Source: Heterodontus francisci (lineage: Eukaryota). From it: 64,000 nt of DNA. Positions 1 to 58,863 of this stretch are shown one piece after another (position 1 is the first letter of the stretch; each line of letters starts with the position of its first letter). The stretch spans positions 199,259,864-199,323,863 of the forward strand of contig NC_090375.1 of the NCBI RefSeq assembly GCF_036365525.1, written 5' to 3'. The notes beneath the pieces are model-generated. The model was not told the DNA's origin. It did not search any database and saw only the letters and a list, made by a program, of their open reading frames with translations. A program made the translations under genes and the position numbers.

Positions 1-3000
1 ACGTTCGAAATCTGAGGAAGTTGTAGGAAAAAAACAGTTTGAAACAAAAAATACAACAGTCTGGCAGGGAAAGATTCAGGTATTTCCTTTGGCAAAAGAG
101 CCAATTTAAACTTGCCAGTACACATGGCAATGTTTTGTTCAGTTCTTGTTTAAAAAAGGAGGGGTGACAATGACATTACCTGTCAATCTGAGGGCTTTGG
201 CCCCGCCCTCTTTCAACGCAGCAGAGTATTAACCATTTCTGTTAGCAGCTTAAGGGAAGCACACACTTTTATAGATATTGCGCTTTTAAATTTTTTTAAG
301 TTTTTGAGTTTGGCGATGAGCAGAATGGATCTTTTGTTTTATTTTCCAAGTTACAGGCAGCTCCAAGTGCAACGGAATTTCCAACAGCTTCAAGAATTTC
401 AGGACATTTGTCACAGCATTGTGGCAATTGGGAGACTGGGAACAAGAAATTAGAATTTAAAATTGCATTCATATGAGTTGGTATTTTAAACATTTACAGG
501 GAACAACAAAAGGATATACACGCATAATTTCAGTGTTTTATGGATAAATAAAAAATGTTAATGTTTTCTTTGAACTGAATTAAATAAATTGATTTTAATA
601 TGAAATGATCTGAAGGCGGAAGAACTAGTGTTGAATCAAAAGGAATATCAAGCTAAGTAATGCAAATAGAGAGGAAAAAGAAAAAGAGAAATCGTGACCC
701 CAAAGTTACCAATAATACAGTGAGGGATATGGAGACCGCTAGACTATGAAAGTGTGGGTATGGTTGGTGATATCGGGCGAGACAACAAGACATTTTGTTG
801 GAAGCGATTTCCAGTTCAAGGGGTAGGCACCCATATGTGCCAGGATAAAGATCAGGAACTACGCTGCTCAAGTAGCAGGATGAGCAGCGTGCCGGGCATT
901 TGGGTAAGATTGCCCAGGAAGTCTCAGCCGTTAATCACAGTTGAAGTGTCTCTAACAGAGCCCAGGCACAAAAAATGGTTTAGCATTGATACCTATTGGG
1001 AAAATGTTAGGCCATGAGGTGGCACCGATGATATTGAATTTGACAGAAATAGGGTTGCCCAGGTGATCTGGGAGAAAGAAGCAGAATTTGAATGACAAGT
1101 TATTGGATAATGAGTTGGTACCCAGAGTAAGGACCAGTGGTGACGGATCTCGTCTCTGGAGACAGGTATATTTCCCATTCATACCAAAAGGGGGCCAGCT
1201 GAAGGAGGAGGAGTCAATGTCACAGCCACCGTCTTTAATACTGGGAAGTCGCTGGTGTATAGTTTGGATCTGGCATCTCTGGAAGCAGAGATAAAGGATT
1301 TCAAGGGAAGGCTGAAGGATATTCTTATGAATGAGAATACCAAGCAGGACTCACAGCTGAGGAAAGATCATAGTATGGCAGTTTATTTAAACAATGTATC
1401 AGAGCTATTGGAAGACCAAACTAAAGCTATAAATAAACTCATCCAGGTGGATGGGAACACTTTTGATGAGGCTGCCTGTAATGGTGTGTGAATTATGTAT
1501 GCTTACCGGTTGGTGGAACAGGCCAGGGAAAATCTGAGGCAAATTCACATGGGGAAGTGCCCCCTTGGGTCACTCAGGATTATCTGGACACGTTGATGAA
1601 GGATAGAACAACATCCCTGTGTGCCACCTCAGAGGATTGGTGCGGTATACCCAATACACACAGATTGTAAAAGGGGAGATCTCAAAATAATGGGTTTGGT
1701 GATGTACCTTCTGGTAATGCCACACAGTGAAGCACCGCTCCCAGTCTATAGAATTGAGAAAAATGGAGTCATCGAGGGGGATATTCATATTGACGGGAGC
1801 TAGGTTAGAAGGGTGCACTGACAGAAGAGGCAACGTGGTTTGCACATATCAGTTGGAAAAGCATGCCCAGTCAACATGTGGATTTAACCTTACTGAGCTA
1901 AACTGTATCATGGAGGCTGCAAGGACGGATCTGAAGCCTACGCAGGCAGCCTCTGTCAGGGAAGGGAATACTGTGTGACAACTAAGGGAAAGTGGAACAA
2001 GTATGGAAGGAATTTATGGTGCCTGATATCCCAACCTAACTTCTATTTTACTCCTGAAGGGCCTGTCGGGACAGGCAATAGGGAGATTGTAAATATTTAG
2101 ATCCACAACAGTACTGAGCTTAATGTGAGGGATGATTTAAAGGGAACTTTGAGACAATATGTGGAGATGTTCCGGCTTGACACACCCCTGTTACTTAAGC
2201 ATTTGACTAAGTTGCGGGGGGAGATTGATCAGTCACGAAAAGTTTATTAACAAATCCAATGAATGAGCCACCAGATTTTGCAAGAGATTAATGACATTTC
2301 AGTAACATCTTGCTGGGATGAGATATGGAATTGGAGAGGTATTATTGAGATACACTCCTGGATAAGAATTATCTCCTACATGCTCGTCATTGTACAATTG
2401 CTTCTTGTTCTTTATTTGCTGCATGAACTATGTTATTGGCACAAACATAGTACAGTGGAACAGCGGGTGAAAATGTTACTGGAGGGACAGAATAAGGTGA
2501 ATGGATTAGTTTCGGAAGTGTCGAAATATTCACAGATGGAATTATACACTTAAGGGTTGATGCAGTAAGACAATTGAATATGTCTTGTATTTTTGTTATG
2601 TTGTGAGGCATTTGTTCATATATTCTGTATTTCTGTTCAAAAGACAAATGTAACCAGTTGTGGTGTGGGCCAGCATGTGGAGTTCACCAGATGGTGAAGA
2701 CGTGGAGGCAAAGGACTTTGGGGCGAAGGGAGATGAATTCTGACTGAAGACATCATCACTGAGTTTCATATTGGACTTCAAAAAAATAAAAGACAGTGTA
2801 ATGGAACTAGAACCCTTCATATACACACAGACAGTCGAATCAGGATATGTTACTGCTGTGCTAGCCTGTGCTGTTAGAATATCAAATAGTCTGTCTACAA
2901 CCAGACTCAGGGACAATGGCCTTTTGAAATATGTGTGAATGGCTTCCTTCTTGCATTATTAAGATGTAGACATATATGCACCTCAGAACTCCCCCTGCCG

Positions 3001-3408
3001 AGAGCTGGATATGACATGCATAGCCAGGTGGGATCGATACGACATTGAAACTCACATGGATGACCCAATTCAAAACATTACCTTATATGTCAAGGGACCT
3101 GGGTCAGAAAGGGGTGTAAAGCCACAACTCACAAAGATATTGTTGTTGCATTTGGGAAGTGTGACTTGGTCAGTCACAGGAAGACATGCGGGAGACATCA
3201 TTCATTGGACCTGACCACCCAAGAACGAGTTTCTGTATGTGCGCCTACTAAGCAACTGGTGTTGTAAGTATATACTATTGCTTGGTGAGTTAATAAAGGT
3301 GTTTCACATAAAGTGGAAATTGTATCCAAAGCTTGTTTCGTTTGCTTGATACTAAGGATTTGGTCAGGATCTTAGAGGGAAGTGAGACCCCCCTTTTTAA
3401 GTCTTACA
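1..3408 (+). mobile_element. LTR element copy A (3' internal region with decayed env-like gene plus 3' LTR ~2564-3408)
   Basis: LTR ends in GTCTTACA (3401-3408) and starts (a)GTAAGAC after a purine-rich tract; AATAAA near 3292. Paralogous to 23030-26495 and 58864-62254. Confidence 0.85.
700..2553 (+). pseudogene. Frameshifted env/fusion-glycoprotein-like gene of the LTR element
   Basis: Pieces across frames: NVTATVFNTGKSLVYSLDLASLEAEIKDFKGRL (fusion peptide plus heptad), Cys-rich GCTDRRGNVVC..STCGFNLTELNC, then WDEIWNW and a hydrophobic TM IISYMLVIVQLLLVLYLL. The 5' boundary is approximate. Confidence 0.7.
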
Positions 3409-3934: not shown

Positions 3935-6655
3935 AACAAAACCAAAATACTGCAGATGGTGGAAATGTGAAATAAAAACAGAAAGTGCTGGAAATACTCA
4001 GCAGGTCTGGCAGCATCTGTGACGTGATAAGCAGAGCTAAAGTTTCAGGTCAGTGACCCTTCATCGGGCTTTGAGCAAGTGAATGGGGGGAGGGGGAAGA
4101 AAATCAAAAGGGAAGGTGTGTGATAGGCAGGAGAGATTAACAACAGAGATGTCACAGAAGAAAAGACAAAGGGAGTCGTGATAGTTGTAGTAAAGACAAA
4201 ATATTAGTCCAGAGAGATTTCTAATGGCAGAAAAAGTAACAGCTACATCCAAATGCAGAAACATGAACACACAAGTTTAAGACAGGCACATGGATAATAA
4301 ATAAAATAAATAATTAAATATTTTTAATAGATTAAAATGGCAGTCATGATCTGATATTGCTGAATTCAGCATTGAGTCCAGAAGGCTGTACAGTGAAAAA
4401 TCGCAAGATTCCCATGATCGCTTCATGGGAACACTGTAGCAGGTCAAGGAGAGGAATGTAGGCATGAGAACAGGGTGGTGAGTTAAAGTTGCAAGCAAAC
4501 AGAAGCCCTGGGTCATGCTTGAGGACGAGCAGAGGTATTCTGCAAAGTGGTCACCCAATCTGGACTTTGTTGAAATGACGTATGGCATTAGAAGAGTCAC
4601 AGATGTCGGTGGGAAGAGACGAGAAAAGGGGGGGAAATAGTGTCAAGATAGGAAGAAACAAGTTCATTGGGGCAGGAAGAGGCTGAAACGATGGGTCTTC
4701 CAGAACAGTCTTGTTTGTGGCTTTTGGGAAGGAGGTAAATGTGGGCTATTCAAGATGGAAAGACAATGAGGTGGGAAACTGTAGAGGGAATTTCTCCAGA
4801 GGTGATGAGGTCGCTGACAGTCCTGGAGACAGTGGATTGATGTTTGGTGGTGGGATCATGGTCCATGGGGAGGTAGGAAGAAGTGTCTGAGAATTGGCAC
4901 TCTGCCTCTGCAAGGTAGAGGTCGGCACACTAGACAACAACGGAACCACCTTTGTAAGCGGGTTTGATGACAATGTCAGGGTGAGACCTGAGAGAATGGA
5001 ATGCAGCAAGTTCAGAGGGAGACACGTTAGAGTGAGTGAGGGGAGCAGAGTAATTAAGACAGCCGATGTCACGCTGTCTCAATGAAAAGACAAAGAGCAG
5101 GTAACAGGCCAGAGGGAGGGATCCACGTGGAGGTAGAGTACAGGGGGAGGGAGAAAGGATCTGCTGATAGATAGACGACTCCTGGCTAAAGAAGTGAGCC
5201 CAGAGGCAAAGCTGATGGAAGAAGAGTTTGGCATCATGCTGAGCCCGAAATTCATTGAGCTGGGCATTAGAGGAGGGTGGTTAATTAAAATGACAAGCAA
5301 CCAGAAGCTCAGGGTCATGCTTGTGGACTGAGTGGAGGAGTTCCACAAAGCAATCATCCAATCTGTGTTTGGTCTCCCCAGTATAGAGGATACCACATTG
5401 TGAGCAGTGAATACAGTATACGAAATGGAAAGAAGTACATGTAAATTGCTGCTTCACCAGGAAGCAATGTTTGGGACATTTGATGGTGAGGAGAAAGGAG
5501 GTGAAAGGACAGGTACTACACCTCTTGTGATTGCATGGGAAGGTGCCGTGGTAAGGAGACAAGGTGTCGGGCGACAGAGGAGTGGACCAGGGTGTTTTGA
5601 AGGGAATAATCCCTTTGCAATGCTGACAGGTGAGGGGAGAGGAAGATGGGTTTGGTGATGGCATCACGATGGAGGTGGTGAAAATGGCGGAGGATGATCC
5701 TTTTGGTATGAAGGCTGGTGGGGTGGAAAGTGAGGAAAAGAAGAACCATGTTGGGGTTCTGGGAGGGAGGAGAAGGGATGAGGGCAGAAGTGCGGGAGAT
5801 GGGTCGGACGGTCAAGGTCCCTGTCAACAACAGTTGGGGCGTGGAGGGAGGGAATCCTCAATTGAGAATAAAGGAAAACATATCAGAGGAACTGTTGTGG
5901 AAGCCAAGTTGATAATGTTTTCCAGTTCGGGGTGAAAGGAGGAAATGACACTGATACAGTTGTCAATATACCAGAAAAAGAGTTGGGGAACAGACCTGAG
6001 TAGGACTGGAACAAGGATTGCTCGACATACCCCACAAAAATACAGGCATAACTAGGTCCAATGTGGGTACCCATAGCAACACCTTCAATTTGGTGGAAGT
6101 GAGTGGAGTTGAAGGCGAAGTTGTTCAATGTGAGAACAAGTTCAGCTAGGTAGAGGAGGGTGATGGTGGACGGGGACTAGTTGGGCCTCGGTTCAAGGAA
6201 GACACCGAGATCTCTCAGAATGTACTGGTGGGGGATGGAAGTATAGAGAGATTGAACGTCCATGGTGAAGCGGAGGCGGTTAGAGCCAGGAAACTGGACA
6301 TTGTTGAAATGACGAAGGGTGTCAGAAGGTTCACAGATGTAGGTGAGAAGAGACTAGACTAGGAGAGACAAAATAGAGTCAAGATAGGAAGAAATACGTT
6401 CAGTGGGGCAGGAACAAGCTGAAATAATGGGTCTACCAGGGCAGTCCTGTTTGTGGATTTTGGGAAGGAGGTAAAGTGGGCTGTTCAAGGTTCTGAGACT
6501 ATGAAGTTGGAAGCTGTAGAGGGAAGATCTCCAGAGGAGATGAGGTCAGTGACAGTCCTGAAAACAGTGGCTTGATGTTGGGTGGTGGGGTCATGGTCCG
6601 GGGTAGGTCAGAAGAATTATCTGAGAGTTGATAGCCTCTGAAATGTAGAGGTTGG
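3935..6655 (-). mobile_element. Rearranged Penelope-like element(s) (RT and GIY-YIG remnants, terminal repeat at ~3935-4300)
   Basis: NNFAFNSTHFHQIEGVAMGTHIGPSYACIFVGY (RT, 5883..6128) and VYCIHCSQCGILYTGETKHRL (GIY-YIG, 5281..5667); homologous to the + strand element at 39.6-44.9 kb. Confidence 0.85.
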
Positions 6656-18339: not shown

Positions 18340-18766
18340 ATGTTGCTCTGTTGGGTTGTTTTCGTGACATTTATTCCACGTAAATAGATCGATTCTTTAA
18401 GTACGTTTTATTTGTTTTCTTCAGACTGTAAAATTATTTGTAATTTGGCGTTTCTTTCCCCACAGATGGATGTTTTGCTCAGGATTTGAAACAGAAAAAA
18501 CTATCAGTGACGGCGAGAACGGGCAAAAGTCCGACAATTACGTGTGAGCTGGGTGAATCAGTCAGTGCTTCCGTTATCCATTGGTACAAACAGGCAGCGG
18601 GACAGCAGCCCGTTCGGATTCTCTACTACGATGGGAGCGTTCGTCGGGATGACGGATTCGATAAAAGGTTTTCAGCAGTGAAGAGCGGAGACAAACAATA
18701 TGTTCTGCTTATTGGCGATGTAAAAGCAGAGGATGCCGCCACCTATTACTGTGCCTATTGGAAACA
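18340..18766 (+). CDS. TRGV: TCR gamma V gene V-c (leader 18340-18379, V exon 18466-18766), open frame
   Basis: MLLCWVVFVTFIP-H-GCFAQDLKQKKLSVTARTGKSPTITC..VIHWYKQ..RILYY..RFSA..EDAATYYCAYWK; GT/AG intron. Confidence 0.94.
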
Positions 18767-20619: not shown

Positions 20620-23600
20620 TGTAAGGCATTTCTATATCTCTTGTATTTTGATTATGTGAGGAATTTGTTAATATCTCTTGTATTTCTGTTCATAAGTTAA
20701 ATGTTACGAGTTGTGTTGTAGACCAGCGAGTGGAGCTCCTCCGATGGTGAAGACGTGGAGGTAAAGGACATTAGAACGAAGGGAGAAGAATCCTGACCAA
20801 AGAATCATCGCTGGGGTTTACATTGAATTAAAAAAAAGACAGCGTAATTGAACTAGGACCCCCAGATACACACAGACAGAGAAATGAGCAGATGCCACTG
20901 ATGTGATAGCCTGGACTGTTGCAACATCAAACACCCTGTCTACAACCACACTCATGGGCAATGGCTTTTTGAGACATTTGTGGATTGTTTCCATCTTGCC
21001 TGGTCAAGATGCAGATATCACATCCATGGGTGGTATATACCTAAGAAATCCCTCTGCTGAGAACAGGACATGACTATATGCAGTCTTGCATAGCCAGGGT
21101 GGGATTGATAAGGCACTGAAACCCAATTGGAAGACCCAATTCAAAACGTGTCAAGCAGCCAGGGTCAGAAAGGGGTCTAAAGCCACATCTCCCAAGGACA
21201 TTGTTGCTGCAGCCGGGAAATATGACTGATCAATCATAGAAAGTTGTGTGGGAGAAGTTATTCAGTGGTCCTGACCATCCAGGAACGAGCCCTGTACGTG
21301 GGTCTACTAAGCAACTGGTGTTGTAAGTATATACTATTGCTTGGTGAGTTAATAAAGGTGTTGCACATAAAGTGGAAATTATATCCAAAGTCTGTTTTGT
21401 GCAATTGATACTCAGTACGGGGTCAGGACCTTAGAGGGAAGTGAGACCCCCTGTTTAAGAGTCTTAAGCTGGCGAGCACTATCAGGGACCCCGAAAGGTA
21501 AAGAAATAGGAATTCAGACATGGATGGACTTGACATGAAATGCGTGGGAGGGAAATTGCCTCTAAAACAGAGGTGGATACAGGTCAACCTAGAAGCTGTG
21601 AACTGGTGCATGGGGTTGAACAGTAGACACAGGGGTCCACTTGGAGGCGAGCCTTAGAAACAGTAGTTTGGCTGATGGAACATCAACATCAGCATAGGAG
21701 TTCTGAAACCAAGACAGTAAAAGGTAGTCAGAAGCTTGATGAGAGAGACAAGAAGCTAAGTGGATGCGAGACAGTTGTGAAGGGGTAAATAACACAGCTA
21801 GAGGAAGAGAGAGAGAGCTGGAATCCCCAGATGATAAGGAGGAATAGGGGTCAGTGGTTTCTGTAAAAAGAAAGGTAAAAGCAATTGAAGTAAAGAGGAA
21901 TCAAAACCGCTAATGTAATTTATTTTTCTTGCCTCTGTCTGAGTTCTGACTTAAGTTTCAAGTTTCCAAGATGAATGTTGTGAGAGTGGAGAACGCAAAG
22001 GAAGCTTCCAGTAATAATGCATGAGTGTGAGTTTGAATGTGTTCTTCGGCACTTTGAGTTTATATCTCATTATAGGAATTCATATGGGTGCATGGGGATA
22101 TGAAAGTGTGCATGTGTTATTGGGTGTGCCTCTGTTAATTTAATGTTAAGTTGTGGATCTATTGGAAGCAAGTAGAGTTGGGAGTTTATTGTGCTATTAT
22201 GTCTCCCAGGTAAAAGATGAAAGCTGCAGTGAAATGTAAGAAGTCCTAGTGTTCTGTCCATTTAAGAACCTGTGCGTGCAAGCTGAAAGGGCTTTTGTGT
22301 TCAAGCTTTTGTGTTCCTGTAGTTTTGGACTCAAAACTTTAAAGTGTTTCTTGTGAATTAACCTTGTGTTTAGAGTTTTAATTAAAGACATTCGGAAGTT
22401 TAAGGAAAGAAGATAAGTGATGTCATATGTTTTTCCTTTCTAAAAGCACGTGTTTCTGTGTGTGTATGGAATAAATGCCTATTTTATGTGGATGATTTTT
22501 TGTGTGTTTCAAACGTCTGTGTTTTCTTTTCCAGAACTTGTGGTTTTGTGGTAGTAGCTTCAGCACTTTAAGCTTGAAAACCCACAGTAAAATTGTGAGA
22601 TAGATTGGAGGGGAAGTTTAAATTGACTGAAGTGGATATTTTAAGTTATGAGATTTGAGGTAGGATTGTTGGCCAGGATCCCAACTCGAATGGGGTTTAT
22701 TAACTACATGGGGATTCTAATCCGGATATGAATTCACCCATGTTAGTTTGGGGTGGTTTTAATATTAAATTGTGCAAATTGGATTTTGGGTTGGAGAATT
22801 TTTCACAAAAGTTAAATATTTATTTTTGGGAATCATTGGAGTTCTTGTCCTGAAATATTGGGAAGATATGGTAAAGTTTACAAAAAAATCTTTTTCTGTT
22901 CAGAAAGAGACAGGTTTAATTGATCTGTCTAACCTGGAATGCATTTCGTGTTTGATTATCTTTTTAAATGGAGAGCTTGGAGTTTTGGAGAAATTGAAAG
23001 AGTGGTTTACAAATACTGACCAGAATGTTCTGAAATCTGCAGAAGTTGCACGAAAAAAAGTGTTTGGAAAAAATCTAATAGGAAAGATTCAGTTATTTCA
23101 TTTTCTTGGAAAGGGATATTGTTTAAACTCATCAGAGCACATGGCAATGTTTTGTGCTTTTTTTAAAAAAAGAGGGGTGACGACAACATCAATAGTCAAT
23201 TTGAGGGCTCTTGTCCCGCCCTCTTTCAAAGCAGCAGAGTGTAAGCAGCATAAGCAAACCCACACACTTACAGATATTGGACATTCTAAAAATTTTAGGT
23301 TTTTAAGTTTGTCGGATATTAACCCCTTTGGCCACAAGCAGAATGGAACTTTTGTATTTTTTTAAAGTTACAGGGAACTGCAGTTGCAACGGAATTTCCA
23401 ACAGCTCCAAGAATTTAAGGAGATTTGCCACAGCATTGTGACAATTGGGCGACTGGGAACAAGCAATCAGAATTTAAAATTACATTCATATATGTTGGTA
23501 TTTTAAACATTTAAAGGAAACAACAAACGTTTATACTCACATAATTTCAGTGCTTTTTATGGATAAATAAAACTGTTAAAGTTTTGTTTGAAAATAATTA

Positions 23601-26600
23601 AATAAATTGATCTGAACGTTAAGTGATCTGTAGGTGGAGGAACTAGTGTTGAAGCAAATGGAATATCAAGCGAGACAACGCAAAATAGAGAGGAAAAACA
23701 AAAAGAGGGAGCCTATTCCCAAAGCTGCGAGCAATAGAGTCAGGGGTGTGGAGACTGCTAGACTATAAAAGGGTGCGTATGGTTGGTCACATGAGGGGAG
23801 ACAACAAGACGTTTTATTGGAAGCAATTTCCAGCGCATGGGGTAGGCACCCATGAGCGCAAGAATAAAAATCAGGACCTATGCTACCCAAGCATCAGGAT
23901 GATCGGCGCATTGGGCACCTAGGTGAGATTGCCCAGGAAGCGCCGGCCTTTACTTGCACCAATAGACTGCGAGGTGTCTCTAAGAGACCCCAGGCTGAAA
24001 GAATATTTAGTTTTGATACCTATTGGGAAAATGTTAAATCATGATGTACATCATGAGATGGCACCAGTGATGTTGAATTTCAGAGACTGGGATGTCCAGG
24101 TGATGTGGGAGAAAGAGGCAGAGCCTGAATGTCAAGTTATTAGACAACGTGTTGGTACACGGAGTAAGGACCAGTGGTGAGGCATCTGGTCTCTGGAGAC
24201 AGGTATATCTACCATTCATAACAAAAGGGGGCAAGCCGAAGGAGGAGGCGAGGGCTGGTCAAGGTCACAGCTATTGTCTTTATTACTGGGACCTCACTGA
24301 TAGTTTGGATCTGGTATCTCTGGAAGCAGAGATAAGGGATTTCAAGTGAAGATTAAATTATGTTCTTACGAATGAGAATACCAACAGGACTAACAGCTGT
24401 GGAAAGATAAAATTAAGACAGTTTATTCAAAGGATGTAGCAGAACGATTGGAAGACCATGCTAAAATTATAAATAAACTCATCTTCGACGATAGAAAAGT
24501 TTCTGATCAGCCTGCCCCGAATAATGTGTGTGTTATGTATGGCTCCTGGTTGGTAGAGCAGGCCAGCGAAAATCTGAGGCAAATTCACATAGGGGAAGTG
24601 CCCTCTTGGGACAATAATAATCATCTGGACATGTTGATGAGGAATAGAACAACATCACTGTGTGCCAGCACAGAAGTTTAGTGCAGGCATACCCTGTACA
24701 AACAGATTATAAAAGGGAAGATCTCAAAATAATGGGTTTGGTGATGTACCTTCTGGTAATGTCACACAGGGAAGCACAGCTCCCAGTCTATAGAATAGAG
24801 AACATAGGAGTCATCAAGGAGACCATCATATTGACAGGAACTAGGGTAGAAGGGTGCACTGACAGGAGAGTCAAAGTGGTATGCCCCTATTGGTTGGAAA
24901 AGCATGCCCAGTCAACATGTTGATTCAACGTTACTGAGCTAAACTGTAGCATGGAGGCTGCAAGAATGGCTCTGAAGCCTAAACAGACAGGACATGTGGG
25001 GGGAGGGAATGCTGTGTAACTACTACTGAAAAGGGGTACAAGCATGGAATAAATTTATAGTGCCCGATATCACAAACTACTGTCTGTTTTATTCCTGAAG
25101 GGATTGCAGGGACAGGCAATAGGGAGATTGTAAATATTTCTAACCCCAACAGTACTGAGCTTAACGTGAGTGATGATTTAAAGGGAACTTTGAGACAGTA
25201 TGTGGAGAAGTTTAGGTATGACACCAACCCCCTCACCCACCCACCCCCACGTTTCCTGAACATTTGACTAAGTTGTGGAGGGAGATTGATAAGTCATGAA
25301 ACGTGTATTATCATATCCAACAAATGAGCCATCAGATTTTGTATGGGATTGGTGACATCCCAGAAACAGCTTGGTGGGATGGGATATGGAATTGGAGAGG
25401 TATTATTGAGATACACCCCCGGATAAGAATTATCTCCCACTCACTCATTGTTGTCCAATTGCTTATGAACTATATCATTGGCGCAAACGTATGAGAGTGA
25501 ATCAATGGGTGAAACTTTTATTGGAGTGACGAAATAATATGAATGGATTAGATTTGTAACCATAGGAGTATTTGAAGTTGAAATTATTCACCTAAGGCTG
25601 GGTGCTGTAAGACATTTGGATGTCTCTTGTATTTGTGTTATGCTGTGAGGCATTTGTTAATATCTCTTGCATTTTGGCTCATAAGTAAAATGTAACTAGT
25701 TGTGCTACAGACCATCATGTGGAACTCAACAGGTGGTGAAGACGTGGAGATGAAGGACATGGGTATGAAGGGAGAAGAATCCTGACTGAAGACATCATCA
25801 CTGGGATCCATATCCGACCTTTTCAAAGTAAAAGGCAGCATAACTGAAGTAGCATCCCCACATATACACATGCAGAGAGACAAGTCAGGACATGCCACTG
25901 ATGTCGTAGACTGGGCTGTTACAACATCAAACAGCCTGTCTACAACCACACTCAGGGACAATGGCCTTTTGAAATCTGTGTGAATGGTTTCCTCCTTGCC
26001 TTATTAAGATGCAGATATCACATCCATGGGTGTTATGCCCCTAAGGACTGCCCCCACCCCTCCCCTCTGCTGAGAGCAGGATATGACCACATGCAGGTGG
26101 TCTTGCATAGCCAGGGTGGGATTGATAAGGCACTGAAACCCAATTGGATGACCGAATTCAAAACATTACCTTATATGTCAAGGGGCCAGGGTCATAAATG
26201 TGAATAAAGTCACAGCTCACAAGGACATTGTTGCTGCAGCTGGGAAGTGTGACTTGGTCAGTCACACAAAGTTATGTGGGAGCAGTGGCTCAGTGGACCG
26301 GACCACCAGGGAAAGAGCTATGTACACGGGTCTACTAAGCAACTGGTGTTGTTAGTATATACTATTGCTTGGTGAGCTAATAAAGGTGTTCCATCTAAAG
26401 TGGAAATTGTATCCAAAATTTGTTTTGTGCGATTGATACTCAGGATCTGGTCAGCAGATTAGAAGGAAGTGAGACCCCTTTTTCAGAGTCTTACAGCTGG
26501 CGACCATGATCAGGGACCCCGAAAGGTACAGAAATGGCAATCCACACTTTGGATGGGATTCTCATGAAATGCGTGGCCGAGAAATTGCCTCTAAAACAGA

Positions 26601-28065
26601 GGTGGGCACATGTCATCCTGCAGTGAGCGAATCAGTGTATGGGGCTGAACAGTGGACACTTGGACGCACTTGTCAGTGAGCCTCGGAAACAGCAGTTTGG
26701 CTGATGGCACTTCAGCATCAGCATAGGTGTTATGAAACCAAGAGAAAAAAAGTTATTCAGGAGATTGATGAGCGAGATAAGAAGCTTTGTGGTTGTGAGA
26801 AAGTTGTGAAAAGGTTAATATTACAGTTAGAGGAAGAGAGAGAGCTGGAACATCTGGACAACATGGACGAATAGGAGTCGGGGGTTTCTGGAAAAGAAAG
26901 TTAAAAGCAGTTGAAGGAAAGAGGTATCAAAACTGCTATTGTAATTTATTTATTTTGTTGGTTCTGTTTGAGTTCTGATTTAAATTTCAAGTTGTCAAGA
27001 CGACTGCTATAAGAATTGAGAATGCAAAGGAAGCTTTCAGTAATAATGTATGTGTGTGAGTTTTGTTGTGTTCTTTGGCACTTTGAGTTTATAACTCATT
27101 ATAGGAGTTGTTACGACCACTCAGGACAAAGACTCCGATCAAAATATATGATTCTGATTGCAGTGCGAGCAATGCACTGTTGATTCAGTCCCGCCACTCT
27201 ACAGGTCGCATCATATTTCTTTAAGCTTTCCAAATCGAGAAAAACAAGACAAATTGAACAATCAAGTACCCTATGAATGAAGTAAACCAAACTAGATATC
27301 TTTATATATCAACAAATTAACTATTTATTAAAAAAACTAAAATCTTAAACACTACTAAGATAAACCAATATCTAAAGACCTTATAACATTTTGTTTAAAA
27401 ATTATCTTCCACATTCACATACATATACTTGGTTTTAAATTTGCTGTCAGAAAAAATAGAAAAAAAAGTCTTTGCTGATTACATTACTGATGAATGGAGT
27501 TTTCCAATACAACACAATCAAAGTTCACCTGCAAACCGAAAGTCCTTCCAAAGATAGAAATTCAGCAGCTGTCGTACTAAACTCTTCTTTTTTCCCAGCA
27601 ATGAACATAGCAGATATCAAGGAAATTAATTGGCTTGAAGCTTTGTCGAATTTTGAGAGAAAATCAACACAGCTTTTTTTTCTTCAGTTTAAATCACCTC
27701 AGAGAGCTCTGCTTCCTTCACTTGCTGGAACAATTTCTCAACCAACTGTTTCTTAGCTAATTTTTTTTAAAGTCAAAAATGCAACATTGAATCTCTGTCC
27801 TTTCTCTCTGTTTGGCTGTTGCTTGGAAATCAGAACACAGTTTGGCTCACTGTCTCCAGAGTGTTTACACTCTTAAAGATGCACCACAATATTTCCGAGG
27901 TGAGAAAATACGCACGACCATGACAGAATTCATTTGGATACATGGGGATATGAAAGTGTGCATGTGATTATTGAGTGTGCCTGTATCAATTTAATGTTCT
28001 GTAAAGTTGTGGGAAGCAATTAGTGTTGGGAGTTTATTGTGTTATTATATCTCCCAGGTAAAAGA
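20620..28065 (+). mobile_element. LTR element copy B, tandem: LTR 20620-21467, PBS, ~4.1-kb internal region with env remnant (~23700-25590), LTR 25606-26495, PBS, partial second internal region
   Basis: TGTAAG..GTCTTA(C)A termini; TGGCGA-CA--ATCAGGGAC after both LTRs; 26496-28065 repeats 21468-22220. Confidence 0.88.
27109..27925. mobile_element. Solo LTR of a different family nested in copy B
   Basis: TGTTACG...CATGACA termini; flanks GAGT/GAAT (degenerate 4-bp TSD); the empty site ATAGGAATTCAT is seen at ~22072. Confidence 0.8.
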
Positions 28066-28871: not shown

Positions 28872-29311
28872 ATGTCACTGTATTACTGGTTCATTGTGGT
28901 GATCATTTTTCCCTGTATGTGTTTCTGATGCTATTATTCAAATGCTGTTATTCAGTCTGCTCTGTCACGCTGTTTATTTGTAACCGTGTCTATTCTTTTC
29001 TCAGGCGGATGTTTCGCTCAAACCTTGAAACAGATTATCCCATCCGTTAGCAAAGCTGCTGGTAAAACCGCTAGATTCCAATGCGAAATACAAGGTGGCT
29101 CGGTCAGCAGCAGTTATCCCCTTCACTGCTACCAACACAAACCCGGCCAGGCACCCACCAGAATACTCTATTATGGGAGAGGTATATCGCGGGATCCAGG
29201 ATTTGGTGAATTGTTTAAAGCCGGGAAGAGTAAAGACAACGAATTCTACCTCACAATCGACAAAATAAAGACAGAGGACGCGGCCACTTATTACTGCGCG
29301 TACTGGGTGTA
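28872..29311 (+). CDS. TRGV: TCR gamma V gene V-e (leader 28872-28914, V exon 29005-29311), open frame but conserved Trp41 is Cys
   Basis: MSLYYWFIVVIIFP-C-GCFAQTLKQIIPSVSKAAGKTARFQC..PLHCYQHKPGQAPTRILYY..EDAATYYCAYWV. Confidence 0.9.
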
Positions 29312-45728: not shown

Positions 45729-46153
45729 ATGTTGCTGTATTGGGTTGTTTTCGTGATATTTTTTCCACGTAAATGGATTTATTCTTTAACTGCGTTTTAT
45801 TTGTTTTATTCAGACTGTAAAATTATCTGTAATTTGGTGTTTCTTTCCCCACAGATGGATGTTTTGCTCAGGATTTGAAACAGAAACAACTGTCAATCAC
45901 CGTGCGAACGCGGAGAATTCGTACAATTGCGTGTGAGCTGGGTGAATCAGTCAGTGCTTCCGTTATCCATTGGTACAAACAGGCAGCGGGACAGCAGCCC
46001 GTTCGGATTCTCTACTACGATGGGAGCGTTCGTCGGGATGACGGATTCGATACAAGGTTTTCAGCAGAGAAAACTGCAAACAAACGATATGTTCTGCTTA
46101 TTGATGGTGTAAAGGCAGAAGACGCCGCCACCTATTACTGTGCCCATTGGAAA
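45729..46153 (+). CDS. TRGV: TCR gamma V gene V-g (leader 45729-45768, V exon 45855-46153), paralogue of V-c, open frame
   Basis: MLLYWVVFVIFFP-H-GCFAQDLKQKQLSITVRTRRIRTIAC..VIHWYKQ..EDAATYYCAHWK. Confidence 0.93.
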
Positions 46154-48370: not shown

Positions 48371-49676
48371 CCACTGTGAAAATGGATATAAACAAGTCTG
48401 TCTCTTCCTTATTATCTGTTATAGTCTCACCTGCATCTGCCTTTAAATGGGTCCACAATTCCGAAATGGCTGCTCCCAGTCTTCCTATTGCCCCCACTAG
48501 GGGAAATGAAAAAAAAGCGAGTCATTTGGATATCTCTTGTATTTTTGTTCTGCTGTGAGACATTTGTTAATATCTGCTGCATTTTTGTTCATTAGTAAAA
48601 TATAACCAGTTGTGGTGTGGACCAGTGTGTTGAGCTCACCATTTGGTAAAAACGTGGAGGCGAAGGACATCAGGATGAAGGGAGAAGAATCCTGACCAAA
48701 CACATCATCACTGGTGTTCATATTGGACATATTAAAAATAAAAGAATGGGAACTGATCAAGCACTCCCACACATACACACCCAGACAGATGAGTCAGGAC
48801 ATGCCACTGGTGTGGTAGCCTGGGCTGTTACAACATCAAACAGCCTGTCTACAACCACACTCACAGACGTTGACCTTTTGAAATTTGTGTGAATGGTCTC
48901 CTTCTTGCCTTATCAAGATACAGATATCACATTTTGGGTGGTAAGCACCTAAGAACACCCCCTGCTGAGCACAGGATATGACCACATGCAAGTGGCCTTG
49001 CATAGCCAGGGTGGGATTAATAAGACACTGAATCCCAATCGGATGGACCACTTCATAACATTACCTTATATGTCAAGGGTCTGGGGTCAGAAATGTATAT
49101 AAAGCCAAAGCTCACAAGGACATTGTTGCTGCAGCTGGGACGTGTGACTTGGTCAGTCATCGGAAATTGTTTGGGAGAAGTCATTCAGCAGTCCTGACCA
49201 CCTGGGAACAAGACCTATATGCGGGTCTACTCAGCAACACCTGTTGTAAGTATATACTATTGCCTGGTGAGTTAATAAAGGTGTTCCACAAAAGTCCAAA
49301 TTGTATCCAAAGTCTGTTTCATGCAATTGATAATCAGTTTGGAGTCAGGACCTGAGAGGGAAGTGAGACCCACATTTTAAGAGTCTTACAGCTGGCGACC
49401 ACGATCAGGTACGCTGAAAGAAAAATCTAACCAGGTTTTGGATGGGTTGTCACGAAATGCGTGGCAGTGAATTTGCCTCTAACACAGAGGTGAATACAGG
49501 TCAGCCTGGAGGGGGTGAACAGGTATATGGGGCGAAAGAGTGGACACAGATGTCTATGTGTCGGCAAAGCTTGGAAACAACTGTTTGGCTGATGGCACAT
49601 CAGCATCAGCATAGGAATTACGAAGCCAAGACAGTAAAAGTTAGTCAGGAGCTTGATGAGAGATATAAGAAACTAA

Positions 49677-52600
49677 ACATGGACACATCGAAAATAAGAG
49701 CAGGAGCAGGCGATTCGGCCCTTCAGGCCTGCTCTGCCATTCAAAAAGGATTATGACTGATCTTCTAATTCAGTACCCTGTTGCTGCTTTCTCCCCATAT
49801 CCCTTGTTTCCTTTTGCATTAAGAAATATACTTTTCTCCTTCTTGAATATATTTAATGACTTGGCCGCCACTGCCTTCTGTGGTAGAGAATTCCTTAGGT
49901 TCACCACCCTCTAAGTGAAGACATTTCTCCTCATTTCAGTTCTAAATGGCATACCCATATCCTGAGAGTGTGACCCCCGATTCTGGACACCCCAGCCATT
50001 GGGAACATCCTCCCGGCATCTAGCCTGTCTAGTCCTGTTATAACTTTATAGGTTTCTATGAGATCCCCTCTCATTCTTCTAAACTCTAGTGAATATCGGC
50101 CTAGTTGATCCAGTCTCTCCTCATATGTCAATTCTGCCATCCCAGGAATCAGCCGAGTAAATCTTCTTTGCACTCCCTCCATGGCAAGAACATGAAGATA
50201 AGGAGATCCAAACTGCACACAATACTCCAGCTGTGGTCTCACCAAGGACCTGTATAACTGCAGTAAGACATCCTTGCTCTTGTACTCAAATCCTCTTGCA
50301 ATAAAGGCCAACATACCATTTGCCTTCCGAACTGCTTGCTGCACCTGAATACTTGCTTTCAGCGACTGGTCTCATCGCACCTCACCCAGGTCTCATCGCA
50401 CCTCCCCCTTTCCTAATCTATCACCATTCAGATAATAATCTGCCTTTCTGTTGTTACAACCAAAGTGGTTAACCTCATATTTATACATATTATACTGCAT
50501 TTGCCATGCATTTGCCCACTCACCCAACCTGTCCAAATCACATTGGAACCTCTTTGCATCCTCCTCGCAGCTTACATTCCCCCTAGCTTTCTGTCATCTA
50601 CAAACTTGGAAATGTTACATTTAGTTCCCTCACCCAAGTCATTAATATATACTATGAATAGCTGGGGCCCAAGCACCTATACCTGTGGTATCCCACTAGC
50701 CATTGCCTGCCACCCGGAAAAAGACAGGTTTATTCCTACTCTCTGTTTCCTGTGTCAACCATTTCTCAATCCATGCCAGTATATTACCCCCAATCCCATG
50801 TGCTTTAATTTTGCACACTAACCTCTTATGTGGGACCTTATCAAAATCCTTCTGAAAATCCAAATGCACCACATCCACTGGTTCTCCCTTATCTATTCTA
50901 GTAGTTGGACCATTAAATCCAGTAGATTTGTTAAGCACGATTTTCCTTTCATCAACCCATGCTGACTTTGCCCAATCCCGTTTATGCTTTCCAGGTGTTC
51001 AGTTATCACATCCTTTATAATGAACTCTAACATTTTCCCCACTACTGATGTAAGGCTATCTGGTCTGTAATTCCCTATTTTTCCTCTCACTTCTTTTTAA
51101 ATAGTGGGGTTACATTTGCCATCCTCCAATCTGTAGGAACTGCTCCAGGATCTGTAGAATTTTTTAAGATGACCACCAATGCATCCAATATTTCCAGGAC
51201 CACTTCCTTTAGTACTCTGAAATGTAGATTATCAGGCCCTGGGGATTTGTCAGCCTTTAACCCCATTAATTTCCCTAGCACTATTTTTTAATCATACTGA
51301 TTTCCTTCAGTTCCTCCCTTTCATTCGACCCTTGGTTCCCTAACATTACTGGGAGGTTATTTGTGTCCTCCTTTGTGAAGACAGAACCAAAGTATGTGTT
51401 TAATCGTTCTACCATTTCTTTGTTTCCCATTATACTTTCCCCCGTTTCTGACTGTAAGGGATGTACATCTGTCTTCACTAATCTTTTTCTCTTGACATAT
51501 TGAAAGAAGCTTTTACAGTCATTTTTTATGTTCCCCGCAAGTTTACTCTCATACTGTATTCCCCCCACTTAAACAACCTCTTTGTCCTCCTTTGCTGAAT
51601 TCTAAATTTCTCCCAATCCTTAGACTTGCTGCTTTTTCTGGCAATTTTACGTGCCTCTCCTATTTGGATCTAATAGTATCCCTAATTTCTTTTGTAAGCC
51701 ACAGTTGAGCCACCTTTCTGGTTTTATTTTTGTGCCAAACAGGAATGAATAATTGTTGTAATTCATGCACTCGTTCTTTCAATATTATGCATTGCCTATC
51801 CACCATCAACATTTCAGTAAAGTTCCCCAATCCACCATCGCCAACTGATGCCTCATATCTTCATAGTTTCCTTGATTTAGATTCAGGACCCTAGTTTAGA
51901 TTCAACTACTTCATTCTCCATCTTAATGAAGAATTCTATCATATTATGGTCGCTCCTCCCCAAGGGACCCCGCACAACAGGATTGTTAATTAATCCTTTC
52001 TCATTGCACAATACCCAGTCTAGGATAACCTGTTCTCCAGTTGGTTCCTCAGTATATTAGTCTAAAAAACTGTCACGTACACACTCCATGAAATCCTCCT
52101 CCACAGTATTATTGCTAATTTGATTTGACCAATCTATATGTAGATTAAACTCACCCATAGTTACAGTTGTGCCCTTATTGCATACATCTCTAATTTCCTG
52201 TTTAATGCTATCTCTTACATCTCCATAACTGTTTGGGGACCTATAGACAACATCCACCAACGTTTTCTGCCCATTGGTGTTTCTTAGCTTCACGTATACA
52301 GATTCCACATCAGGATTTTCTGAGCCAATATCTTTCCTCACTATTGCATTGATTTCCTCCTTTACTAACAGTACTACCCCACCTCCTTTCCCATTATGCC
52401 TGTCCTTCCTAAATATCGAATACCCCTGGATGTTCAGTTCCCATCCTTGGCCACCCTGCAGCCATGTCTCTGTAATCGCAACTATGTCATAACCATTTAT
52501 ATCTATTTGCGCTGTTAATTCATCTACCTTATTGTGAATGCTCCACACATTAAGACACAATGCCTTTAGACTTGTCTTTTTTTTAACATCGTTCGTCATC

Positions 52601-55600
52601 TTAACTTTATTTTGCACTATGGCCCCATTTGTTTCTTGCCCTTGTTTTCTCTGCCTTCCACTTTTGCTTCTTACCTTTCTGTTTTTCATTTCTAACCTTG
52701 TTTCCCCCTCCTCTGTCACCCTGCTCAGTTTCCCATACCCCTGCCATTTTAGATTAAACCCTCCCTGACTGCACTTGTAAAAACCCCTCCACTCCCTGAG
52801 GAATTTGGTCCCGGACCTCCCAGATGCAACCCATCCAGCCTGTACTGTTCCCACCTTCCTCAGAACCTGTCCCAATGTCCCAGAAATCTGAATTCCAACC
52901 CCCCCCCCACCCCCCACCCCCGCCACACCATTCCTCCAGTCATGTATTCATCTGATATATCCACTATTTCTGCTCCTGCTAGCACATGGCACTGGTAGTA
53001 ATCCTGAGATTATTACCTTTGAAGTCGTACTTTTTAACTTACATCCTAACTCCCTATATTCAACTTGTAAGACCTCATTTCTTTTTTTTACTTATGTTGT
53101 TGGTACCAATATGTACCATGACAACTGGCTGCTCACCCTCTGCTCTCAGAATTCCCTGCAGCCACTCAGAGTCATCCTTGACCCTAGCACCAAGGAGATA
53201 ACATACCATCCTGGAGTCTCTTTTGTGGCCGCAGAAATGTCTGCCTACTCCCCTTACGATGGAATCCCCTATCACTATAGTCTTGCCACTCTTCTTCCTT
53301 CCCTTCTGTGCAGCAGCGCCACCAATGGTGCCATGAACTTGGCTCTTGTTGCTTTCCCCTGAGCCATCTACCACAACAATATCCAAAGCAGTATATCTGT
53401 TGGAGAGGAGGATAGCTACAGGGGACTCCTGCACTACCTGCCTTCCTCTACTCTGCTTGGTGGTCACACATTCCCATTCTGCCTTTGTAGCATTTGCCTG
53501 TGGTGTGGCCAACTCACTAAACATGATATCCACGTTGATCTCACAATCGCAGATGCGCCACAGTGAATCCACCCACACCTCCAGCTCTGAAATGCGGATT
53601 TTGAGTAGCTGCAGCTGGAGACACGTCCTGCAAGCGTGTTCGCCCTGGACTCTGGAAGTGCCTCTGACTTCCCACATTGCACACGAGGCACACTCCACGC
53701 TGCCAAACTGCCATGCCAAGACTCACCTTAATATAATCCCTTAACAATTAGAGATTATTTACATGCGGGACCTTGATTCCCTAAAAAACACTACTTATTC
53801 TATTAAAAAACCTGTATACCTTACCCTACTCCCAATAGGCTTTATTACCACTAGTAAACTTTACTACTACTAATAAAACCTCACAATTACTGATAAATTA
53901 GCTGAGTTTTGGAAGATAAATGAGAAAAATAACAAAATGCTCTCTAATCAATAACTTACCTGTTTCACGGCGATGGCACCTTTTATCTCTTCTCCGAATG
54001 TGGTGCACTCATCGACTGAGCCCCAGTCACAGCTCTCAGACGGCTCTCCTCTCGCCCTGTTTAGAAGCTTTGGGACCACTCTCCTCTCGTGCTGTTTCGA
54101 AGCTCTGGGACCGCTCTCCTCTCGCGCTGTTTTGAAGTTCTGGGACCGCTCTCCTCTCGTGGTGTTTAGAAGCTCTCGGACCGGAGATCAAAAGAACAAA
54201 GAACAGTACCACACAGGAACAGGCCATTCGGCCCTCTAGGCCTTCGCTAATCATGATGCCTGCATCAACTAAAACCTTCTGCACATCCGGGGTCCGTATC
54301 CCTCTATTCTGATCCATTCCAATGATTTATCAAGATGCCTCTTAAACGTCGCTATCGTACCTGATTCCACTACCTCCCACGGCAGCAAGTTCCAGGCACT
54401 CACCACCCTCTGTGTAAAGAACTTGCCTCGCACATCCCCTCTAAACTTTGCCAATCTCACCTTAAACCTATGTCCCCTAGTAACTGACTCTTCCACCCTG
54501 GGAAAAAACTTCTGACTATCCACTCAGTCCACTCATAACTTTATAAACCTCTATCAGGTTGCCCCTCCACCTCCGTCGTTCCAGTGAAAACAATCCAAGT
54601 CTTTCCAACCTCTCCTCATAGCTAACACCCTCCAGACCAGGCAACATCCTGGTAAACCTCTTCTGTCCCCTCTCCAAAGCCTCCACATCCTTCTGTACAT
54701 CTGCAGCATTGCTTGCCAATTTTTATACTCTATGCCCCGACCAATGAAGGCAAGCATGCCGTGCCTTCTTGACGACTTTATCCACCTGCGTTGCCACTTT
54801 CAGTGATCTGTGGACCTGTACGCCCAGATCTCTCTGCCTGTCAATATTCCTAAGGATTCTGCCATTTACTGTATATTTCCCACCTGTATTAGACCTTCCA
54901 AAATGCATTACCTCACATTTGTCTGAAATAAACTCCATCTGCCATTTCTCCGCCCAAGTCTCCAACTGATCTATATCCTGCTGTACCCTCTGACAATCCC
55001 CATCACTATCCGCAACTGCATCAACCTTTGTATCGCCCGCAAACTTACTAATCAGACCAGTTACATTTTCCTCCAAATCATTTATATATACTACAAACAG
55101 CAAAGGTCCGAGCACTAATCCCTGCGGAACACAACTAGTCACAGCCCTCCATTCAGAAAAGCACCCTTCCACTGCTAACCTCTGTTTTCTATGACCGAGC
55201 CACTTCTGTATCCATCTTGTCAGATCCCGTGTGACTTCACCTTTTGAACCAATCTCCTCACTCTTTTTAAAGCTCTCGGACCGGTCTCTTCTCACGTTGT
55301 TTGGAAGCTCTCGGACCGCTCTACTCTCGCTCTGTTTCAAAGCTCTCGGACCGCTCTCCTCTCACGGTGTCTTGAAGCTCTCGGACCGCTCTCCTCTTGC
55401 TATGTTCTGAAACTCTCACCGCTCTCCTCCTACGCTGTTTTGAAGCACTGGAACCACTCTCCTCTCGTGGTGTTTCAAAGCTCTCGGACCGCTCTCCTCT
55501 CACTCTGTTTTGAAGCACTTTAACACTCTCCTCTCATTTTGTTTTGAAGCACTTTAACACTCTCCTCTCGCTCTGTCTTGAAGCACTTTAACACTCTCCT

Positions 55601-55717
55601 CTCGGTCTGTTTTGAAGCTCTTTAACACTCTCCTCTCGGTCTGTTTTGAAGCTCTTTAACAATCTCCTCTCGCTCTGTTTTGAAGCTCTTTAACACTCTC
55701 CTCTCGCTCTGTTTTGA
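49677..55717 (-). mobile_element. Near full-length CR1 LINE (5' tandem repeats, ORF1 zinc finger plus SGNH/GDSL esterase, decayed ORF2)
   Basis: ORF 53075..53719 has VECASCAMWEV..HACRTC..VIGDSIVR..VMVHIGTNN; ORF 52057..52926 has DIVAITETWL; RT fragments at 49931-51568. Confidence 0.92.
54030..55717 (+). repeat. ~34-35-bp tandem repeat (CTCTCCTCTCGCTCTGTTTTGAAGCACTTTAACA-like) in two blocks split by a CR1 insertion (~54190-55250)
   Basis: Units recur at 34-nt spacing (e.g. TAACACTC at 55521 and 55555); the array sits at the 5' end of the CR1. Confidence 0.9.
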
Positions 55718-56214
55718 AGTGGATGTGAGACAGTTGTGAAAGGATAAGTAACACAGCTAGAGGAAGAGAGAGCGCCAGATCCCCCAGCTGATAAGGAGGA
55801 CTAGGGGATTAGTGATTTCTGGAAAAAGAAAGATAAAAGCAATTGTCGGAAAAAATAATAAAAACAACTAATGTAATTTATTTATTTTCTTGCTTCTGAC
55901 TAAGTTTCAAGTTGTCAAGATGAATGTTGCAAGAATGGAGAATGCAAAGGAAGCTTCCAGTATTAACTTATGTTTGTGATATTTAATGTGTTCTCTGGCA
56001 CTTTGAATTTATAACTCATTGTAAGAATTCATATGGGTGCATTGGGATATGAGACTGTGCATGTGATTATTGAGTGTGCCTCTGTCAATTCAATGTTCTG
56101 TAATGTTAAGTTCTGGATCTATGGGAAGCAATTAGTTTTGGCAGCTTATTGTGTTACTACGTCTCCCAGGTAAAAGATGATGTGCAGTGAAAGGTAAGAA
56201 GTCCTAGTGTTCTG

Positions 56215-58248: not shown

Positions 58249-58863
58249 CCCTTTAAGAACCTGTGCGTGCAGGTAAAAAGGCTTTTGTGTGTAACCAGGT
58301 TTCCTTTTGTTTTCGATCACGGGCTATTTTTCTCTTGTGTATGTGGAATAATTGACTTTTTTTTGTGTGGATTGTGTTTTGTTTGCTTTCTGTATTTCTC
58401 TTCCTGACATTGTGGTTTTGTGGCAGTAGCTTCAACACTTTAAGTTTGAAAACTCACAGTAAAATTGTGAGATAGATTGGAAGGGAAGTTTAAATTAGCT
58501 GAAGTGGATATTGCAAGTCATGAGATTTGAGGTGGGATTGCTGGTCAGGATCCCAACTCGAATGGGGTTTATTAACCATGTGGAGATTCTAATATGGATA
58601 TGAATTCTTAAATGTTAGTATGGGGTTGTTTTAATATTAAACTGTGCAAACTGAAATTTGGGTTGGGGACTTTTTCACAAAAGTTAAAAGCTTCTTTTTG
58701 GGAACCATTGGAGTTTATGCCCTGAAATAATTGGGAAAAGGAATTGGTAACATTTTTAAAAACTTGCTTTGTTCTGAAGAAAACAGGTTGAATTGGGTTG
58801 TCTAAAATGGAGAGCTTGCAATTTTGGGGAAATTGAAAGAGTGATTTACAAATACTGAGCAGA

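What the first reader, a model, noticed from the sequence alone, without database searches (positions are those of the whole stretch)
20620..26495. LTR element with no visible pol carrying an F-protein-type (lokiretrovirus-like) envelope
Seen: ~850-890-bp LTRs with TGTAAGAC/GTCTTACA termini flank only ~4.1 kb. That internal region holds a short 5' ORF remnant, AT-rich sequence and a 3' env-like frame, and I found no protease, RT or integrase motifs. Copy B keeps a polybasic site at 24237-24251, RRRRR|GLVKVTAIVFITGTSL, followed (after a frameshift) by SLDLVSLEAEIRDFK. Combining copies gives HR1, a long Cys-rich segment, HR2, W-rich WWDEIWNW and a TM, about 445 codons after the cleavage site (1215-2553 in copy A). 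Established: gammaretroviral TM subunits are about half that size and contain CX6CC, which I did not see here. A long Cys-rich post-cleavage subunit is typical of paramyxo/pneumovirus F1 and lokiretrovirus Env. Inference: this is a non-autonomous env-bearing element of that type in a chondrichthyan, possibly an undescribed family.
Basis: partly seen in the sequence, partly recalled or inferred. Interest (0 to 1): 0.8.

Follow-up and report, generated by a model that had tools for sequence, protein, structure and literature searches.

The report
Dead hitch-hiking shark retrovirus, F-type envelope
This is one of many old, broken copies of a shark retroviral element that has no polymerase gene and likely spread by borrowing enzymes from a full retrovirus with the same terminal repeats; it is likely a relative of snakehead retrovirus rather than a lokiretrovirus, and its envelope relic is predicted to be built like the fusion protein of RSV and measles-type viruses.

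Summary
The element is real: LTR, gag stub, non-coding spacer, broken env, LTR. It belongs to a dispersed family (189 env and 1306 LTR candidates). None of 43 stretches examined holds protease, RT or RNase H; 2 hold short gag or integrase scraps. The env matches shark and ray proteins whose nearest annotated look-alikes are F-type fusogens (Atlas 0.95; Foldseek ranks RSV/hMPV F first, E 0.017, not significant). The lokiretrovirus reading fails. Gag-pol-env proviruses with the same LTR family exist (11 of 18 loci), and their RT is about 50% identical to snakehead retrovirus and 31% to a lokiretrovirus (hand count); the primer site fits tRNA-Arg(TCG). The env was already dead when the family spread: two frame breaks are shared by most copies (19 of 24, 14 of 16) and copies decayed neutrally. 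The env is closer to a sister family (57-63%) than to the helper's env (38%), so spacer and env likely moved between LTR families. The window's copy is a tandem chimera in a duplicated V-gene array. This scan noted F-type env in SnRV-like shark ERVs before, on other DNA; I did not find it in print.

The parts
20621..21467 (+). 5' LTR of copy B
   Evidence: LTR family has 1306 first-look candidates in the genome
21470..21489 (+). primer-binding site, decayed; family motif complements the 3' end of tRNA-Arg(TCG)
   Evidence: family copies; matching tRNA gene found and typed
21474..21863 (+). 5' stub of gag, about 130 codons, broken
   Evidence: frame free of shared stops; 66-74% DNA match to the gag 5' end of pol-bearing relatives; protein match to a distant Gag not significant
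21900..23650 (+). AT-rich non-coding spacer (35% GC) in place of gag-pol
   Evidence: no shared-open frame over 75 codons on the + strand; colinear in the copies; patchy 70-93% matches to a spacer in pol-less sister elements, none to pol-bearing L074, L111, L113, L124
23650..24236 (+). env, surface-subunit remnant; its 5' end is deleted in this copy
24237..24251 (+). polybasic (furin-type) cleavage site RRRRR
   Evidence: same place in other copies and relatives
24252..25563 (+). env, fusion subunit remnant: long helix, Cys-rich beta region, second helix, W-rich stretch, membrane anchor; several frame breaks
25595..25605 (+). purine-rich stretch before the 3' LTR (likely polypurine tract)
   Evidence: same motif before the 3' LTR of family copies and of helper L102
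25606..26495 (+). 3' LTR of copy B, also 5' LTR of a second, truncated unit
26498..28065 (+). second unit: primer site, gag stub and start of spacer (26498-27109 and 27926-28065), interrupted
1..3408 (+). copy A: 3' part (spacer, env, LTR); its 5' part lies before the window
   Evidence: L060
48520..62254 (+). copy C, split by LINE-type insertions; segmental duplicate of copy A

Best explanation
This is a decayed copy of a pol-less LTR element family that likely spread in the germ line as a passenger of a gag-pol-env provirus family sharing its LTRs, is likely of the snakehead-retrovirus-related group, and carries the broken relic of an envelope gene predicted to be of the paramyxo/pneumovirus F type. 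Shown: shared pol-less layout, 4-bp target-site duplications at dispersed copies, tRNA-Arg primer site, a pol-bearing family with the same LTR, shared frame breaks in env, neutral decay among copies. The copy in the window was later rearranged and duplicated with the V-gene array around it and has no likely function today.
For: Layout: 40 fetched loci colinear, long inserts are LINE/Penelope type. Protease, RT, tether, RNase H: 0 of 43 stretches with helper queries, control 5-17 of 18 helper loci; 0 hits with 18 gag/pol queries from other relatives. Retrotransposition: TSDs at L029 and L026 exact, L037 3 of 4. Helper: L102 has gag with zinc knuckle, pol and env between LTRs with a 4-bp TSD; its LTR is K2P 0.16-0.21 from nine family LTRs, whose mean among themselves is 0.18; 11 of 18 further loci with its pol carry that LTR within 10 kb. 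SnRV kinship: L102 RT 66 of 131 positions identical to SnRV, 41 of 131 to Loki-Npa (hand count); RNase H motifs shared with SnRV; dual RNase H, integrase, one CCHC knuckle. F type: Atlas features 0.95 for two shark homologues, nearest clusters Baculo_F, Gypsy env, Fusion_gly; TM 0.57 to an F0 cluster; Foldseek top 10 are all pneumo/paramyxo F; Baculo_F E 0.006 on L081. Dead env: same break in 19 of 24 and 14 of 16 copies, control junctions in frame 15 of 17 and 17 of 21, sister family in frame 11 of 19 and 12 of 15; codon positions diverge alike within the family (0.15/0.13/0.16) but 0.22/0.14/0.69 net between families. Env tree: 25 family rows form one clade (99) inside pol-bearing relatives.
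Against: No sequence or fold match to an F protein is significant on its own: Foldseek best E 0.017 on a poor model (pLDDT 51), VIA-align found only helical bundles, PDB and Pfam profile searches were blank. The F evidence is on homologues, not on the window's own sequence. RT placement is by hand count and motifs, with no tree against named references; among solved RTs foamy RT scores best (SnRV and loki are not in that set). Only the best 40 of 189-200 DNA candidates were scored per search, so pol-bearing copies with this family's own env may exist; L030 has 330 bp of helper-type gag and L027 a weak integrase scrap. 7 of 18 helper-type loci showed no family LTR within the 10 kb fetched. Trans-mobilisation itself is inferred.
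Confidence: 0.8

Rival explanations
1. Env-supplying satellite: a pol-less lineage (gag stub, spacer, env) kept a working F-type env for a long time and spread between cells or hosts with a helper, giving it a second envelope; the window family is a late, env-dead offshoot.
For: A sister family has the same pol-less layout with a homologous spacer (L076, L077, L110, L117, L120, L123), and its env junctions are mostly in frame. Env between the two families shows strong purifying selection (position 2 / fourfold sites 0.21). The family env is only 38% identical to the helper's env.
Against: The sister pol-less env is 82-85% identical in DNA to env of pol-bearing sister copies, so repeated capture of env from helpers by recombination explains the selection equally well. 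In the window family env was broken before the spread.
Confidence: 0.25
2. Non-autonomous lokiretrovirus, the first in a cartilaginous fish.
For: F-like env with polybasic site and long post-cleavage subunit; coiled-coil Gag N-terminus and dual RNase H in relatives.
Against: RT motifs and identity follow SnRV, not loki; SnRV Gag also has an N-terminal coiled coil (PMC2717909); a loki Env seen in the supplement has a strongly hydrophobic fusion peptide unlike this one; 0 of 3 chondrichthyan genomes had loki.
Confidence: 0.05
3. Deleted foamy-like ERV; foamy Env is also F-like with a long TM subunit.
For: Similar subunit length; foamy RT is the best PDB match; the genome holds 47 foamy-env matches.
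Against: None of those 47 loci is a family locus; no HMM or profile-profile similarity to them (hhalign probability 0.4 or less); relatives' Gag has a zinc knuckle, which spumaviruses lack; tRNA-Arg primer.
Confidence: 0.04

Closest known systems
Snakehead retrovirus (SnRV) and SnRV-related ERVs (clade Huo, PMC6001957; CmiERV lineage I of elephant shark, PMC4422223)
   Same: RT and RNase H motifs, coiled-coil Gag with one zinc knuckle (in the helper and relatives); already known from a chondrichthyan.
   Different: The window element has no pol. I found no paper calling SnRV-clade Env F-type, and no SnRV Env among my protein hits, so whether SnRV's own Env is related is open.
Lokiretroviruses (PMC7947760)
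   Same: Env resembling paramyxo/pneumovirus F, polybasic cleavage site, dual RNase H in relatives.
   Different: RT of the helper is about 31% identical to Loki-Npa against 50% to SnRV; loki not found in chondrichthyans.
Foamy virus Env (PMC11468914)
   Same: F-like retroviral envelope with long fusion subunit.
   Different: No detectable sequence similarity to PF03408 or to foamy-like env of this genome; different Gag and primer.
Non-autonomous ERV passengers: ETn/MusD, VL30/MLV, ERV-beta4_1B, MaLR (PMC6466679); TERV (PMC2717909)
   Same: LTRs and internal ends shared with a coding helper, middle replaced by non-retroviral sequence, spread in trans.
   Different: Keeps a near full-length env relic that comes from another family than the helper's; SnRV-like, shark.

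Membership tests
Lokiretrovirus | RT in the loki clade, sister to other retroviruses | tested here: not met
   helper RT 41 of 131 identical to Loki-Npa, 66 of 131 to SnRV; diagnostic motifs follow SnRV (hand comparison); no tree with named references
Lokiretrovirus | Env similar to paramyxo/pneumovirus F | tested here: met
   moderate strength, on homologues; not specific to loki
Lokiretrovirus | integrase closest to CGIN1 | not tested
   no reference sequences on hand
Lokiretrovirus | smc-like gene before gag (some members) | tested here: inconclusive
   coiled-coil-like Gag N-terminus in relatives, no SMC family hit; SnRV has the same trait
SnRV-related ERVs (clade Huo) | RT closest to SnRV | tested here: met
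   about 50% identity by hand count for helper L102
SnRV-related ERVs (clade Huo) | placement in an RT phylogeny with named references | not testable with these tools
   reference RTs were visible only as text in a supplement
SnRV-related ERVs (clade Huo) | Gag with N-terminal coiled coil and one zinc knuckle | tested here: met
   zf-CCHC in L108 and L113, E 0.002-0.005, below cut-off; knuckle visible in L102; SnRV traits from PMC2717909
SnRV-related ERVs (clade Huo) | tRNA-Arg primer site | tested here: met
   that SnRV uses tRNA-Arg is recalled, from no call
SnRV-related ERVs (clade Huo) | Env homologous to SnRV Env | tested here: inconclusive
   no SnRV Env among hits; these searches are insensitive
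Foamy viruses / foamy-like ERVs | Env matching PF03408 or foamy-like env of the same genome | tested here: not met
Foamy viruses / foamy-like ERVs | Gag without zinc knuckle | tested here: not met
Gamma-type Env | CX6CC and short TM ectodomain | tested here: not met
   no CX6CC in L079, L080, L081; over 400 residues after the cleavage site
F-type class I fusion protein | cleavage site, long helix, Cys-rich beta region, second helix, TM | tested here: met
   secondary structure of the model; alignment
F-type class I fusion protein | significant fold match to a solved F | tested here: inconclusive
   Foldseek E 0.017 at best, low-confidence model; Atlas TM 0.54-0.57, under its naming bar
Non-autonomous ERV passenger (ETn/VL30 kind) | no pol, multiple insertions with TSD, LTR shared with a coding provirus | tested here: met

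The most novel reading that the evidence does not exclude
Sharks and rays carry a large SnRV-related retrovirus group with an F-type envelope, a third retroviral lineage with this fold beside foamy and loki viruses, which would make the F fold the ancestral retroviral Env; and within it a long-lived pol-less spacer+env cassette moved between LTR families as an envelope-supplying satellite.
Probability: 0.25. Interest if true: 0.7.

Novelty: new variant of a known kind. Interest (0 to 1): 0.45.

Why it matters
The element itself is a dead repeat. The wider group matters: Wang and Han (PMC7947760) left four scenarios open for the origin of retroviral Env. An F-type env on an SnRV-like pol, inside the retrovirus tree, would join foamy and loki viruses and favour an F-type ancestor with later replacement by gamma-type Env. 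The genome holds 2716 first-look candidates for this env type, so it is a major, little-described part of shark ERV content. The family is also a clear fish case of a helper/passenger pair in which the passenger carries another family's env.

Full report
Observation. The window holds an LTR at 20621-21467 and one at 25606-26495, 80% alike, with 4.1 kb between. The internal part has a primer site, a broken 5' frame of about 130 codons, 1.75 kb of AT-rich sequence and an env-like region with RRRRR at 24237-24251. Two more copies lie at 1-3408 and 48520-62254; they are duplicates of one insertion (94.5% over 5.1 kb with flank). Copy B has a 96-98% paralogue 57 kb on (L040). B has no target-site duplication, and its 3' LTR is followed by a second primer site and 5' internal stretch, so B is a tandem or recombined structure; its LTR distance (K2P 0.19) exceeds that of pairs in dispersed copies (0.11-0.13). 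The neighbours are three Ig V-set segments with recombination-signal-like ends; that they are T-cell receptor gamma V genes is recalled from their motifs.

Family. DNA searches of the 6.0-Gb genome gave 189 env, 200 gag-stub and 1306 LTR first-look candidates, of which the best 40 were scored each time. I fetched 10 kb at 40 places. Wherever they match, they follow B's order at 70-85% identity. Of 17 long frames in or beside them that I scanned, 14 are LINE-type RT or endonuclease, 1 is GIY-YIG and 2 more had no match. Dispersed copies have 4-bp target-site duplications (L029, L026 exact; L037 3 of 4). Ten helper queries found protease, RT, tether and RNase H in 0 of 43 family stretches, against 5 to 11 of 18 control loci. 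Exceptions: 330 bp of helper-type gag upstream of the spacer in L030 and a 32-residue integrase match (E 0.001) in L027. Six copies keep 450-700 bp of env 5' end, with a hydrophobic leader, that A, B and C lack. LTR distances of 0.11-0.13 give 25-29 My at 2.2e-9 and 110-130 My at 0.5e-9 per site per year (rates from PMC7947760 and PMC10699275); the age is not well fixed.

The envelope. A single-frame piece of family env found 2716 candidates in the genome, 150 scored, down to 34% identity. A profile search of 1.84 billion proteins gave 18 hits; 17 are unnamed shark or ray proteins, one is a chance bacterial hit. For two of these the ESM Atlas gave feature scores of 0.95 with Baculo_F, Gypsy env and Fusion_gly clusters, and for one a TM of 0.57 to a fusion glycoprotein F0 cluster. 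A model of a natural 531-residue open frame of a relative (57 rows, pLDDT 51) shows strands and a helix before the cleavage site, then about 120 residues of helix, a beta region, a second helix and the anchor. Foldseek ranked RSV, hMPV and henipavirus F in all of the first ten places, best E 0.017; the wide VIA-align search and BFVD gave nothing significant. No CX6CC. No similarity to the foamy-like env at 47 other loci (8 compared). I put the F-type reading at about 0.85; it rests on homologues and on agreement of weak signals.

The env was dead during the spread. Against a natural frame of the sister family, the same frame break occurs in 19 of 24 copies at one junction and 14 of 16 at another; control junctions are in frame in 15 of 17 and 17 of 21; the sister family is in frame in 11 of 19 and 12 of 15 (duplicates L023, L040, L046 and copy C left out). 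Most copies also share a deletion of about 15 codons. Within the family the three codon positions diverge alike (0.15, 0.13, 0.16); between family and sister family the net distances are 0.22, 0.14, 0.69 (codons with CG left out; the alignment filter favours conserved codons). So env was a selected gene on the branch leading here and junk by the time of the expansion.

Relatives and helper. [quoted passage not shown] One locus, L102, is a gag-pol-env provirus between LTRs of the window's own family: TSD of 4 bp, LTR pair 0.079 apart, 0.16-0.21 from nine family LTRs whose own mean is 0.18. Of 18 more loci with its pol, 11 have that LTR within 10 kb and 11 have its env. Its env is only 38% identical to the family's; in DNA only the last 150 bases or so are shared. 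The spacer is absent from pol-bearing L074, L111, L113 and L124 but has a homologue in six pol-less sister elements and in L073. The family is therefore a mosaic: helper LTR and ends, spacer and env of sister-family kinship. This is the pattern of ETn/MusD, VL30/MLV and ERV-beta4_1B (PMC6466679).

Which retrovirus group. By hand count L102 RT matches SnRV at 66 of 131 positions and Loki-Npa at 41 of 131, using the alignments in the supplement of PMC7947760. The motifs PTVA, LDISNGFWS and LPQGFH are shared with SnRV; loki has different words there. RNase H motifs also follow SnRV. The family primer site complements a tRNA-Arg(TCG) gene of this genome; SnRV's use of tRNA-Arg is recalled. SnRV-related ERVs are known from elephant shark (PMC4422223); lokiretroviruses were found in 0 of 3 chondrichthyan genomes. 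No tree with named references could be built.

Novelty. Searches for a printed account of F-type Env in SnRV-related or shark ERVs gave none (two searches returned 0 papers); subscription journals, Dfam and Repbase were not searchable, and the paper on cartilaginous-fish foamy ERVs and the original SnRV paper were not held. Two earlier notes of this scan, seen only after my RT comparison, reach the same reading on other genomes; they are not independent proof. What this window adds is the pol-less family, its identified helper, the heterologous env and the proof that env was broken at expansion.

Papers seen. PMC7947760: parts 1-3 of 4 and searched passages of its supplement (cut when stored). 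PMC4422223: part 1 of 2. PMC10699275: part 2 of 4. Passages only: PMC11468914, PMC12193657, PMC12583693, PMC11521997, PMC6001957, PMC2717909, PMC6466679, PMC4977317, 10.1101/2023.10.26.564294, 10.1101/2024.03.17.585361. Supplements of the others were not read; CmiERV sequences there could show whether lineage I has this env.

Verdict. Observation confirmed with corrections; F-type and non-autonomous supported; lokiretrovirus not supported. New variant of a known kind, interest 0.45.

Noticed in passing
window 18444-18766, 28929-29311, 45833-46153: Three Ig V-set gene segments, each followed by a heptamer/nonamer-like signal; likely a T-cell receptor gamma V array (label recalled) that was duplicated together with the LTR elements.
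   Followed up: partly
L045 5158-10000 and L046: A 74-bp piece of the element's spacer (matching window 22709-22778) is amplified into a tandem satellite of more than 60 copies.
   Followed up: no
L079, L087, L088, L090, L092, L093, L097-L099: A second pol type, with a more orthoretrovirus-like RNase H, carries the same env type, so the env spans at least two or three pol lineages in this genome.
   Followed up: partly
L126 5673-8700: A copy with the window family's spacer but a quite different env of the same type, a further env swap.
   Followed up: partly
L061-L068: At least 47 foamy-virus-like env loci in this genome.
   Followed up: partly
P0005 (sawshark protein named Niban 1-like): A gene model joins a piece of this env type to a Niban-like host protein; may be an annotation artefact.
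   Followed up: no
L038 oriented 6400-6430 and window 21493-21503: An acceptor-like pyrimidine-AG motif before the env leader and a donor-like AAG/GTAAAG just after the primer site suggest a spliced env message.
   Followed up: no
PMC2717909 (chicken Ovex1 ORF3): An SnRV-related bird ERV has a long env without CX6CC or immunosuppressive motif; worth testing for the same fold.
   Followed up: no
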